From assembly GCA_027623195.1 (NCBI GenBank), contig JAQBUT010000006.1:1-64000 (forward strand): a DNA stretch of 64,000 bases. The letters run 5' to 3'. Positions within the stretch are counted from its first letter, which is position 1. Each line of letters opens with the position of its first letter. This document shows positions 34,644-37,600 of the stretch, one piece after another. The DNA comes from Chloroflexota bacterium. GTDB lineage: Bacteria; Chloroflexota; Dehalococcoidia; Lucifugimonadales; JADFKI01. The position numbers were made by a program.

Positions 34644-37600
34644 TAGCACAGAACTGGCCGTTCTGATTCTACAAGAGGCAGAAGCTAAGAAAACTCCGGG
34701 ACTACCTCGCTCAAGAACGTGTCCAATTGCGCTTGCTGATCCAGCGCGGCAAATCTTACTACGATGGTCTCTGCGCCAGCCTCGACGTACCGTTGCATGC
34801 GCTCAATCGTGCGCTCCGAGTGACCGTAGGGTCCCCAACGGTCGCCCCAGAAGTTCATGCCATAGTAGAGGTGTAAGAACTGGTTTGCCTCTGCGTCAGC
34901 CTTGGCCTCGTCGGCCTGCATATTGACCGTCATGTAGAAAGTGCGCTCCAGCTTGGACGGGTCCTTGCCATAGTCGTGGGCGTACCCCTGCACCTTTTCG
35001 ACTAACCTGGCGTACTCATCAGGGTAGTCAGAGATCGACATTATGCCGTCCCCCAACCTGGCCGCTCTTCGGAACTGGGCCTCGCGCCCCGTGTTCCAAT
35101 GACAAGCCACCAGAAAAGGCACTCCCCCCTTTTGCAAGGCGTGGGGCTGCACCCGGAGCGACTCAAAATCAAAATGCGCACCATGATGGGTTACGACCTC
35201 GCCAGCCGTCAGGCGCTTGGCGACGTCGACAACCTCTTCGAAGCGGCCGGCCCTTTGTTTGGGGTCCACGCCCGCGTTAAGCCACTCCTGACGCTGGTCT
35301 TCGTTGAAGGCGCCTCCTACGCCCGCGCCAATGATGGCCCGGCCGCTTGAGATGAGGTCCAGACTACCCAGCACGTGTGCCAGCGTAACCGGGTGCCGCA
35401 GGGCCGCCAGGAGTACCGACGTTCCCAACCGTACCCTCTTGGTGCGGGAGGCGATGGCCGCAAGGGTCGTCAACGGCTCCAATCTAGGCTTGGCCGTCAG
35501 GCTGTCGCCAACCCAGACCGAGTCCAGTCCCGCCTTCTCAACCTGCTCCGCCATAGAGAGCACAGTCTCGATATCCTGGGGGGCCTCGCCGGTCATTATC
35601 AGGCGTCGTGTGGGAAGGAGAACGCCAATCTTGACCTTAGTCATTCCCTTGTAATCCAAGCGGGTATTCCCTAGTTAGACTGGCCGATAGGTCGGACCAT
35701 CCAGTGAGCTTCCCGAGAAATCCGGGCTCTATTTCTTCGCATCGATTAAGGTCCGCCGGGGTATCCAGATCCAGGGAGAAGCCAGGGCTTTCGCAAACTG
35801 AATACGGCAATCCCAACGCCTGCGCCAGGTCCTGGTGGCGTCGAAAACTGTCCTTGCCTAGGGCAGGGCGAAACCCCGAACTAGCGGGCACAAACATCGC
35901 GTTGGTCCCGGCATCGCGTTGAGCGGGGGCCAACGCCAGTTTTGTTCCAGCCTCCGAGGCCGTTAACAGGGCCACGATATCGCTGGACTGCAGGAAAGGC
36001 AGGTCCGCCGGCAGGTACAGGCTCGGCAGGTCAACCTCGTCTGCCGCATTCATGGCATTGGATACGGCGTCATTAAGGCCCGTTCCAAGGTCTTCGTGCC
36101 ACTGCGCGCCCAGTTGCCGTGCACGCTCTCGCACCTGATCATCTCCGCCGATTACCCATATTCCGGTTACGGCCGATTCCATGGCTACCTTTACGACGTG
36201 CGAGAACATGCCCATGGCCAGCGCAGCCCTTGAACCGGAGTCTAGCTCTTTAGACAGGCGCGACTTGGCAAGGTGCAGGGGTTTCATGGGAATTAACACC
36301 GTTACGTGCAGGTCCCCGCTAATAGAGGAAATATTCATCACGTCAGCTCGCAGATGAAGTGTGCAAGCCTGACTTTATCATCGTAAGTGCTCATAATGGT
36401 ATTAGTGATCTCAACCTTCATTCCCAACTGCTCTATTTGCAGAGCCAGGTGACGGTCCTGCTCATCGATGACAAAAACGTCACAGAGGCCCACGTATTGC
36501 CGGGCGACGCCAACGCAGGAGACGTCATGCCCCAATTCACGTAAAAGTTTTGCCGCCGGTCCCTTGATAGCCTGCCCCCCAACGATGGGGCTTACGGCAA
36601 CCCTCCTGCCTTGGAAGCTTTCAATTGCCTTTTGCACCCCTTGAACGGCCAGTATGGGTGCCACGCTAATGAAGGGATTGGACGGGCAGAAAACCAGCGC
36701 CTCGGATGTCGCCAAGGCGGTAGCGAATGCTGGCGAAGGCCGTGCGTCATCGGCTCCTACGAACCTGATATGGGATACGACAGGCTCGCTGCGATTTTGA
36801 ACGAAGTAGGTTTGCATAGCAAGGTCGCCCATGTCGGTGGACAGCACGGTACGCACGCTGTCGTCGCTCATGGGGAAGACCGCGTGTCGCACGCCAAGGG
36901 CGGTACACAGCGATTGCGTGACCTGCGAAAGCGCCTGGCCCTGGCTAAGCAGGTGGGTACGCCGTATGTGAGTGGCAAGGTCCAAATCCCCCAAATTGAA
37001 CCAGGCGTCGGCTCCGTACTGTCGAAGACGCTCGAGCGTGCGGAAGCTCTCGCCTTCAATGCCCCATCCCATCTCAGTATTGGAAATGCCAGCAAGCGTA
37101 TACATCACCGTATCCACGTCGGGCGAGACGTGCAGGCCGTGGAACTCCTCATCGTCGCCGGTATTGACTACGATGGAAAGTTGGTCCGGTTCCAGCACGC
37201 CACATAGGCCAAGAGCCAGCTTCGCCCCGCCCACGCCGCCTGCCAGTGCCAGGATGGGAGTCTTCAATTCGAGTTCCGCAAAGTAGTATTCCTCTTGCCG
37301 CCACAATATCCGCCACAATCCATGTCTCGTGCCGGGCACTGGGGTTAATAGACCGAACAAATGTAACACCTATGCTAAAATCGTGGCAATACAGGGGCAG
37401 AACCATAGAGAGGTCCTCGCATTTACATCAGCCACCTGAGCCTTCTGAACTTCCGCAACTACGAGCACTTGGAACTGGATTTGAAACCAGGAATGGTGCT
37501 GTTTCAGGGCGATAACGGTCAGGGCAAGAGCAACCTCCTGGAGGCCATATACATGCTCGCCGTGGCCAAGTCGCCCAGGGCGTCATCCGACCGTGAGTTG

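What a model noticed while it worked through the whole genome (the two positions that open the first line are those of the whole stretch)
34685..37360. F420 assembled without its own Fo synthase: cofC-cofD-cofE kept, cofG/cofH lost
The genome keeps CofC, CofD and CofE (C56:98353), an NADPH:F420 reductase and 17 further F420-dependent family members but has no Fo synthase (CofG/CofH/FbiC). Several SAR202 lineages have lost just the chromophore step and would have to take up the deazaflavin Fo from other microbes.
Evidence so far: CofC, CofD, CofE over cut-off. Same 31 genomes: CofD in 15, CofH over cut-off in 8, always within 2 kb of cofD; 7 CofD genomes lack it, among them three single-contig ones. 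CofG 0 of 5, CofE 5 of 5. Here the cofD-cofC-LLM unit lies mid-contig with recF where relatives have cofH; same order in three relatives. No unassigned radical-SAM gene.
(Added by a program. Inside this text positions count along the whole contig: contig position 1 is position 1 of the stretch shown here. "Call 12" and the like, gene names such as g00115 and contig names such as C1 are that model's own, and its searches are not shown. The text may have been shortened before it was handed on; [...] marks where a part breaks off. The agent that wrote the report below was given it as the finding of a first reader that could run no searches.)

Follow-up and report, generated by a model that had tools for sequence, protein, structure and literature searches.

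The report
F420 salvage with a candidate importer
This aquatic bacterium and many relatives keep the enzymes that finish and use the redox cofactor F420 but cannot build its ring, and they carry an unnamed ABC importer that probably brings the ring in, which would make F420 a shared microbial vitamin.

Summary
Confirmed: cofD-cofC-LLM is intact, CofE and Fno are present, and CofG/CofH are not found. The absence is lineage-wide, not an assembly gap. Of 151 genomes of the order, 47 have CofH and CofD, 23 have CofC/D/E without CofG/H (6 single-contig), and 68 keep only CofE, 63 of them with Fno. cofC and cofD stay under purifying selection.

New here: an NMT1/THI5-type ABC cassette (C40:71332-74118) occurs in 0 of 47 producers, 19 of 23 CofC/D/E genomes and 34 of 68 CofE-only genomes. 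It lies beside cofD-cofC, or cofE-fno, in several classes and phyla, and beside riboflavin genes in none of 183 loci. The LLM behind cofC tracks CofC/D (61 of 70 against 2 of 68) and may be a missing biosynthetic step.

Best reading: deazaflavin salvage through a new importer. Binding and uptake are untested, the tree-corrected association is not significant (p about 0.25), and half of the CofE-only genomes lack the cassette.

The parts
36338..37369 (-). cofD, 2-phospho-L-lactate/PEP transferase that joins the side chain to Fo; likely start TTG at 37267
   Evidence: TIGR01819 306.6 bits, cut-off 257.45; aligns to solved CofD and FbiA with the metal-binding aspartates kept; start read from sequence
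35637..36341 (-). cofC, guanylyltransferase; 4-base overlap with cofD; Gly at the position where 3-phosphoglycerate-using enzymes have Ser/Thr, so PEP or 2-phospholactate type
   Evidence: TIGR03552 146.8 bits, cut-off 105; alignment to 7p97 and 6bwg; diagnostic residue from PMC8764529
34685..35659 (-). luciferase-like (LLM) oxidoreductase overlapping the cofC stop (likely start ATG 35644); candidate missing step of the CofC/CofD stage, such as a dehydro-F420 reductase
   Evidence: PF00296 177.8 bits; orthologue in 41 of 47 producers, 20 of 23 CofC/D/E genomes, 2 of 68 CofE-only genomes; function inferred
37469..38635 (+). recF, divergent flank; also flanks cofD in 7 genomes that have cofG/cofH elsewhere
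   Evidence: TIGR00611 293.9 bits
32625..34646 (+). ligA, convergent flank of the cof unit
21452..21928 (+). F420H2-dependent quinone reductase family protein (a consumer of the cofactor)
   Evidence: PF04075 148.7 bits, cut-off 22

Best explanation
The organism is a deazaflavin auxotroph that completes F420 by salvage. (1) It cannot make the Fo ring: CofG/CofH are absent (shown at genome and family level). (2) It obtains Fo and/or F420-0/short-tailed F420 from outside, most likely through the ABC cassette at C40:71332-74118 (ATPase, permease, NMT1/THI5-type lipoprotein); uncharged Fo may also diffuse in (inferred). (3) CofC activates PEP or 2-phospholactate with GTP and CofD joins it to Fo (family membership shown, chemistry from the literature). 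(4) If PEP is used, the LLM behind cofC may reduce dehydro-F420-0 (weakly inferred). (5) CofE adds the glutamate tail, Fno reduces the cofactor with NADPH, and at least 13 F420-family enzymes use it (families shown). Relatives show a graded series: full synthesis, entry at Fo (CofC/D/E), entry at F420-0 or F420 (CofE plus Fno).
For: Three states among 151 genomes: 47, 23 and 68; in single-contig genomes 14, 6 and 12. Consumers are kept without synthesis: Fno in 21 of 23 and 63 of 68, TIGR03619 LLMs in 22 of 23 and 61 of 68; family f37 lacks CofE, Fno and TIGR03619 together in 4 of 4. Rough dN/dS for cofD is 0.08-0.23 in 9 pairs without CofG/H and 0.10-0.16 in 14 producer pairs; no CofD column separates 43 producers from 25 non-producers. 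Cassette: 0 of 47, 19 of 23, 34 of 68; single-contig 0 of 14, 6 of 6, 6 of 12. It lies directly upstream of cofD-cofC in G029 (confirmed), encloses cofD-cofC-LLM in L525, and adjoins cofE-fno plus an F420 LLM in 5 Spirochaetia loci; four of those genomes and L472's have CofE but no CofD or CofH. Among 80 wider homologue loci, 20 have cofC/D/E or fno within 8 kb, 39 an upstream IclR regulator fused to a PNPOx/FDOR-type domain, 52 either, 0 riboflavin genes; 0 of 34 loci of distant (about 30%) homologues have either. Producers nested in the cassette-bearing half of the tree (f50, f52) carry CofG/H of two separate origins and lack the cassette. Yeast given CofC, CofD and FbiB makes F420 from Fo added to the medium (PMC10949242, passages); Fo occurs in culture supernatant (PMC11104420, passages).
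Against: No binding, uptake or F420 measurement exists. The cassette's anti-correlation with CofG/H largely follows the tree: of 8 independent pairs about 3 go the expected way, 0 the other way, 5 do not differ; sign test p about 0.25. 34 of 68 CofE-only and 4 of 23 CofC/D/E genomes lack it with this query, so another route must exist. In G000 the cassette is not beside any cof gene (25 kb from fno), and only 11 of 103 close-homologue loci have a cof/fno neighbour. The nearest solved relatives bind thiamine or its precursor, and the same superfamily holds the riboflavin importer RibXY. The regulator's domain scores below the F420-specific cut-off (53 of 79) and could bind FMN. Whether Bellilinea and Levilinea, which carry the cassette, have any F420 genes was not checked. 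Completeness of the five outside genomes is not given.
Confidence: 0.72

Rival explanations
1. Salvage is real but the C40 cassette carries something else (riboflavin, a thiamine precursor); Fo enters by diffusion or another carrier.
For: Weak tree-corrected association; ThiY-like fold; the review says the charged side chain, not Fo, blocks diffusion (PMC8498797, passage); half of the CofE-only genomes lack the cassette.
Against: Repeated, differently arranged linkage to cofC/D/E and fno in several classes and phyla; 0 of 183 loci with rib genes; 51 of 55 carriers have ribH; no FMN riboswitch in 5 genomes or 30 loci; a separate ThiXYZ-like cassette beside tenA exists at C41.
Confidence: 0.13
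2. An unrecognised Fo synthase replaces CofG/CofH.
For: The substrate pathway is intact (ribD-ribE-ribBA-ribH on C6); G000 has two unassigned radical-SAM-type proteins.
Against: No unassigned radical-SAM family is common to 5 single-contig CofG/H-less genomes (one weak hit of 45 not examined); it would not explain 68 genomes that also lack CofC/D. A non-radical-SAM route was not tested.
Confidence: 0.05
3. CofC/D/E act on another head group (for example riboflavin), giving a flavin analogue of F420.
For: Riboflavin is made here and shares the ribityl arm (general knowledge).
Against: 16 chosen CofD active-site columns have the same consensus in 43 producers and 25 non-producers, 13 invariant, and no diagnostic column exists; Fno is kept.
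Confidence: 0.04
4. The cof genes are decaying leftovers.
For: The series full, CofC/D/E, CofE only, none looks like stepwise loss.
Against: Purifying selection as in producers, open frames; CofE in 139 and Fno in 138 of 151.
Confidence: 0.04
5. cofG/cofH lie in the unassembled 13% of this genome.
For: 87% completeness, 65 contigs.
Against: 4 of 4 family members at 97-99% completeness lack them; G000 carries the cassette found in 0 of 47 producers; the HAD|AIR-synthase-like site that holds cofG/H in G125 is empty mid-contig on C3 and bridged by single contigs in 3 runs of 2 studies.
Confidence: 0.02

Closest known systems
Canonical F420 pathway (CofG/CofH or FbiC, CofC/FbiD, CofD/FbiA, CofE/FbiB, FbiE)
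   Same: CofC, CofD, CofE and Fno pass their curated cut-offs; stand-alone CofE as in other Chloroflexota
   Different: No Fo synthase; no FbiB-C-terminal/FbiE match found; an LLM co-inherited with cofC/cofD. The 2021 review treats Fo and F420 genes as generally co-occurring (PMC8498797 section 9).
Putative F420-0 ABC transporter of Actinobacteria (TIGR03868/03869/03873)
   Same: Same idea: organisms with only cofE import F420-0. The family names were seen; their basis (Selengut and Haft 2010) is recalled, the paper was not held.
   Different: Unrelated binding-protein class (BtuF/siderophore-like versus NMT1/THI5); the C40 protein does not hit TIGR03868 at all; here salvage also starts one step earlier, at Fo.
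RibXY riboflavin importer of Chloroflexus (PMC4418817, passages)
   Same: Sulfonate/nitrate/taurine-type ABC permease and binding protein, flavin-like cargo, same phylum
   Different: No FMN riboswitch, no rib neighbours, linkage to cof/fno genes instead; identity to RibY itself not tested.
ThiXYZ thiamine-precursor salvage (ThiY, PDB 3ix1, 4nmy)
   Same: Fold (TM 0.71, 27-28% identity) and logic: import a precursor, finish the cofactor inside
   Different: G000 has a separate ThiY-like cassette beside tenA at C41, 29% identical to the G020 query; the C40 protein is a distinct subfamily.

Membership tests
De novo F420 producer | Fo synthase CofG + CofH or FbiC | tested here: not met
De novo F420 producer | CofC over cut-off | tested here: met
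   146.8 of 105
De novo F420 producer | CofD over cut-off with catalytic aspartates | tested here: met
   306.6 of 257.45
De novo F420 producer | CofE over cut-off | tested here: met
   265.6 of 180.65
PEP route (dehydro-F420) | FbiB C-terminal domain or FbiE nitroreductase | tested here: inconclusive
   One nitroreductase picked by a recalled motif (C26:12791-13423) scores 41.9 of 249.55 on TIGR03553; no genome-wide profile search was left
3PG-F420 route | Ser/Thr at CofC position 162 (Mycetohabitans numbering) | tested here: not met
   Gly in the alignment to 7p97 (residue)
Putative F420-0 ABC (TIGR03868/69/73) | Three subunits over cut-off | tested here: not met
   C40 protein: no hit. C61 cassette: 240.8 of 392.4, 309.8 of 437.35, 286.8 of 372.4
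Putative F420-0 ABC (TIGR03868/69/73) | Occurs where synthesis is missing, beside cofE | tested here: not met
   C61 cassette lies inside a cobalamin cluster; hits of 90 bits or more in 9 of 151 genomes, 4 of them producers
RibXY | NMT1/THI5 binding protein plus SsuC/TauC-type permease | tested here: met
RibXY | FMN riboswitch upstream | tested here: not met
   0 of 5 genomes; 0 of 30 loci, 20 of them family members
RibXY | More than 38% identity to Chloroflexus aurantiacus RibY | not tested
   RibY was not among the fetched sequences
RibXY | Binds and imports riboflavin | not testable with these tools
   needs a binding assay
ThiXYZ | Linkage to thiamine salvage genes | tested here: not met
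   the C41 paralogue, not C40, lies beside tenA; one TPP riboswitch about 6 kb downstream on the other strand in 1 of 20 family loci
F420-dependent LLM families (window LLM) | Over an F420-specific NCBIfam cut-off | tested here: not met
   best 142.5 of 166.9

The most novel reading that the evidence does not exclude
F420 behaves as a traded vitamin: about 60% of the sampled genomes of this order (91 of 151) use it without making its ring, a previously unnamed NMT1/THI5-type ABC family imports deazaflavins in Chloroflexota, Spirochaetia, Acidimicrobiia and others, in some lineages under an IclR regulator with a (deaza)flavin-binding domain, lineages swap between importer and regained cofG/cofH, and the LLM behind cofC is a new type of dehydro-F420 reductase.
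Probability: 0.5. Interest if true: 0.9.

Novelty: new variant of a known kind. Interest (0 to 1): 0.8.

Why it matters
SAR202 bacteria are abundant in dark ocean and other waters and are known for very large LLM families, many labelled F420-dependent (PMC5395668, PMC6946804; passages). If most of them depend on deazaflavin made by others (producer relatives; possibly ammonia-oxidising archaea, which carry full F420 gene sets, PMC8498797 section 16), F420 joins B12 and thiamine as an exchanged cofactor that could limit their activity and their cultivation. No F420 or Fo importer turned up in the literature searched, so the cassette gives a single soluble protein to test, and an importer would be useful for F420 biocatalysis in hosts that cannot make the ring.

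Tried and rejected
Loss of riboflavin synthesis as the cause: rejected, ribH in 144 of 151 genomes and a full rib operon in G000. The C61 cassette whose best hits are the putative F420-0 ABC families: rejected as the main importer (below cut-offs, inside a cobalamin cluster, patchy, also in producers); not excluded as a second route. recF synteny as proof of deletion: rejected. The C3 empty site as a deletion scar: first taken so, then downgraded, because the cofG/H found there in f52 groups with f19 and looks inserted (the AU test, p 7e-6, was run after the first tree was seen; G083 was placed by its family, having no rpoB hit). Neighbourhoods of cofE in 20 CofE-only genomes showed no shared transporter. 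The ATPase beside fno in G044 resembles the C41 thiamine-type cassette by eye and was not counted. Fisher tests (p about 1e-13) are not used, since kin are not independent. Sequencing runs: no RNA holder listed. Protein atlas gave only NMT1 clusters. Earlier scan findings: four look-ups, nothing returned. Paper searches without a relevant hit. Selengut and Haft 2010 and Ney et al. 2017 were not held; they or their supplements may already list partial pathways. No supplements were read.

Full report
Observation. The window holds, on the minus strand, cofD (36338-37369), cofC (35637-36341) and an LLM oxidoreductase (34685-35659), with overlapping ends, between recF and ligA. CofD and CofC pass their curated cut-offs; the LLM passes PF00296 but no F420-specific family. 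CofE (C56) and Fno (C40) pass theirs. CofG and CofH were not found by NCBIfam profiles, by profiles built from relatives, or by tblastn. Close homologues are labelled Dehalococcoidia or SAR202 cluster; near-identical DNA is held by aquatic and estuary metagenomes of two studies, one run of which may be the source.

Is the absence real? G000 is 87% complete, so I searched the same 151 genomes of the order for each gene. CofD passes its cut-off in 71, CofH in 47 (all with CofD), CofG in 48, CofE in 139, Fno in 138; CofC matches in 72 (65 over cut-off). Setting aside 3 fragmentary genomes (G056, G079, G112), the states are: 47 producers, 23 with CofC/D/E but no CofG/H, 68 with CofE but no CofD, 10 with neither. 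Among 33 single-contig genomes they are 14, 6, 12 and 1.

Is the pathway alive? Fno is kept in 21 of 23 and 63 of 68 genomes, TIGR03619 LLMs in 22 of 23 and 61 of 68, while family f37 lacks CofE, Fno and TIGR03619 together in 4 of 4. Rough Nei-Gojobori dN/dS (many pairs near saturation) is 0.08-0.23 for cofD and 0.13-0.37 for cofC in 9 pairs without CofG/H, against 0.10-0.16 and 0.01-0.35 in 14 producer pairs; no CofD column separates 43 producers from 25 non-producers. The riboflavin operon is intact, so lack of substrate does not explain the loss.

History. On an RpoB tree of 91 genomes the CofG/H state changes at least 12 times and CofD 18 times among the 87 rows scored (FastTree, unrooted). 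G000 sits in a half of the tree where producers are few. Their CofG/H group with two different families of the other half (f52 with f19; f50 and G083 with f25), and an AU test rejects one origin (p 7e-6, run after seeing the tree). The simplest reading is an old loss followed by regains, plus separate losses in the other half (G029, G064, G041). The site on C3 that holds cofG/H in G125 is empty in G000 and bridged by contigs of 3 runs, but it may be the state before insertion rather than a scar.

The candidate importer. Beside fno in G020 lies an ABC cassette with an NMT1/THI5-type binding protein. Searched over the 151 genomes, orthologues (over 300 bits; next paralogues 110 or less) occur in 55: 0 of 47 producers, 19 of 23 CofC/D/E genomes, 34 of 68 CofE-only, 2 of 10 without CofE, 0 of 3 fragmentary. 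G000's copy is C40:71332-74118. In G029 the cassette stands directly upstream of cofD-cofC, where most producers have cofG-cofH; in L525 it encloses cofD-cofC-LLM; in G035, G084 and G037 it follows fno. Five Spirochaetia loci join cofE, fno, the cassette and an F420 LLM; four of these genomes and that of L472 have CofE but no CofD or CofH (completeness not given). In 80 loci of wider homologues (35-64% identical; Anaerolineae, Ardenticatenia, Chloroflexia, Dehalococcoidia, Acidimicrobiia and others), 20 have cofC/D/E or fno within 8 kb, 39 have an upstream IclR regulator fused to a PNPOx/FDOR-type domain, and none has rib or cofG/H genes; 34 loci of roughly 30%-identical homologues have none of these. 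These loci include kin and overlap the handle set, so they are not independent counts. The model (pLDDT 91.9) is ThiY-like, and the family stands apart from a continuum of weaker hits.

Against it. On the tree, 8 independent pairs give about 3 in favour, 0 against and 5 uninformative (p about 0.25). Half of the CofE-only genomes lack the cassette with this query. Only 11 of 103 close loci have a cof or fno neighbour, and G000's own copy has none. The superfamily also holds RibXY and ThiXYZ, though no FMN riboswitch was found, 51 of 55 carriers have ribH, and a separate thiamine-type cassette exists at C41. Because the cassette also serves genomes without CofC/D, its cargo is probably F420-0 or F420 as well as, or instead of, Fo; the review notes that the charged side chain is what blocks diffusion, so CofC/D may mainly capture Fo that diffuses in.

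The LLM. Its orthologue occurs in 41 of 47 producers, 20 of 23 CofC/D/E genomes and 2 of 68 CofE-only genomes, although the last group keeps other F420 LLMs. That pattern fits a role at the CofC/D stage. CofC has the Gly of PEP/2-phospholactate enzymes; the PEP route needs a dehydro-F420 reductase, known so far as a nitroreductase (PMC8498797 sections 27 and 33), and the one nitroreductase I found scores far below that family. A reductase role is a lead (about 0.3); co-deletion of an operon neighbour is the plain alternative, and 9 of 70 CofD genomes lack it.

Literature. Read: PMC8498797 (outline, sections 9, 16, 27, 31, 33, passages), PMC8764529 (parts 2 and 3 of 7), passages of PMC11104420, PMC7253369, PMC5395668, PMC6946804, PMC4418817, PMC10949242 and PMC12700198 (irrelevant). 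Searches for F420 uptake, transporter, salvage or import and for the TIGR03868 family returned 0 papers; searches showed no report of Fo auxotrophy in SAR202 in their listings. The library lacks most subscription papers, including two key ones. Import of F420-0 by cofE-only Actinobacteria is already proposed in NCBIfam family names (basis recalled), so the concept is not new; the Fo entry point, its scale in this order and this transporter family appear to be.

Verdict. The absence of Fo synthase is real (about 0.97). Salvage of an external deazaflavin is likely (about 0.85), and the C40 cassette as its importer is the best-supported route (0.72 overall). New variant of a known kind; interest 0.8.

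Noticed in passing
G000 C61:18609-38076 (L349): Cobalamin cluster (cobN, chelatase subunit, cobT/cobS/cobD/cobQ-like genes read from sequence) that encloses an ABC cassette whose three best NCBIfam hits are the putative F420-0 transporter families, all below cut-off; this casts some doubt on those families' specificity.
   Followed up: partly
L134-L141: In 8 other genomes the same TIGR03868-like binding protein stands, where the locus shows it, upstream of a MATE-like membrane gene and not an ABC permease.
   Followed up: no
L675:5096-6268, L635:5162-6421 and 37 more loci: IclR HTH regulator fused to a PNPOx/FDOR-type domain upstream of the cassette in Anaerolineae, Ardenticatenia and Acidimicrobiia; a candidate F420- or flavin-sensing regulator; no tblastn hit in G000.
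   Followed up: partly
G000 C50:28843-29874 (L345): HpnH over cut-off, also in 4 of 5 single-contig relatives: hopanoid side-chain synthesis.
   Followed up: no
G000 C11:93075-94400; L350, L352: Unassigned B12-binding radical-SAM protein shared within family f1 (best TIGR04072, 206 of 360).
   Followed up: partly
L342, L358, L359: Prokaryotic viperins over cut-off in G022 (one) and G076 (two).
   Followed up: no
window 21452-23659: F420H2-dependent quinone reductase, a second LLM and a flavin reductase side by side.
   Followed up: no
window 39678-45905: MalT-like TPR/BTAD regulator followed by an ECF sigma and RskA-type anti-sigma factors.
   Followed up: no
L088, L089, L091: In G035, G084 and G026 a different LLM (about 25% identical) stands next to cofC/cofD in place of the usual one.
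   Followed up: no
CofH-like hits below cut-off (265-320 bits), often in pairs, occur in about 20 genomes, some without CofD; probably the futalosine menaquinone enzymes MqnC/MqnE (recalled, not tested). None in G000.
   Followed up: no
L573-L576 genomes: The four Spirochaetia genomes carry a second, weaker CofE-like gene (110-123 bits) elsewhere.
   Followed up: no
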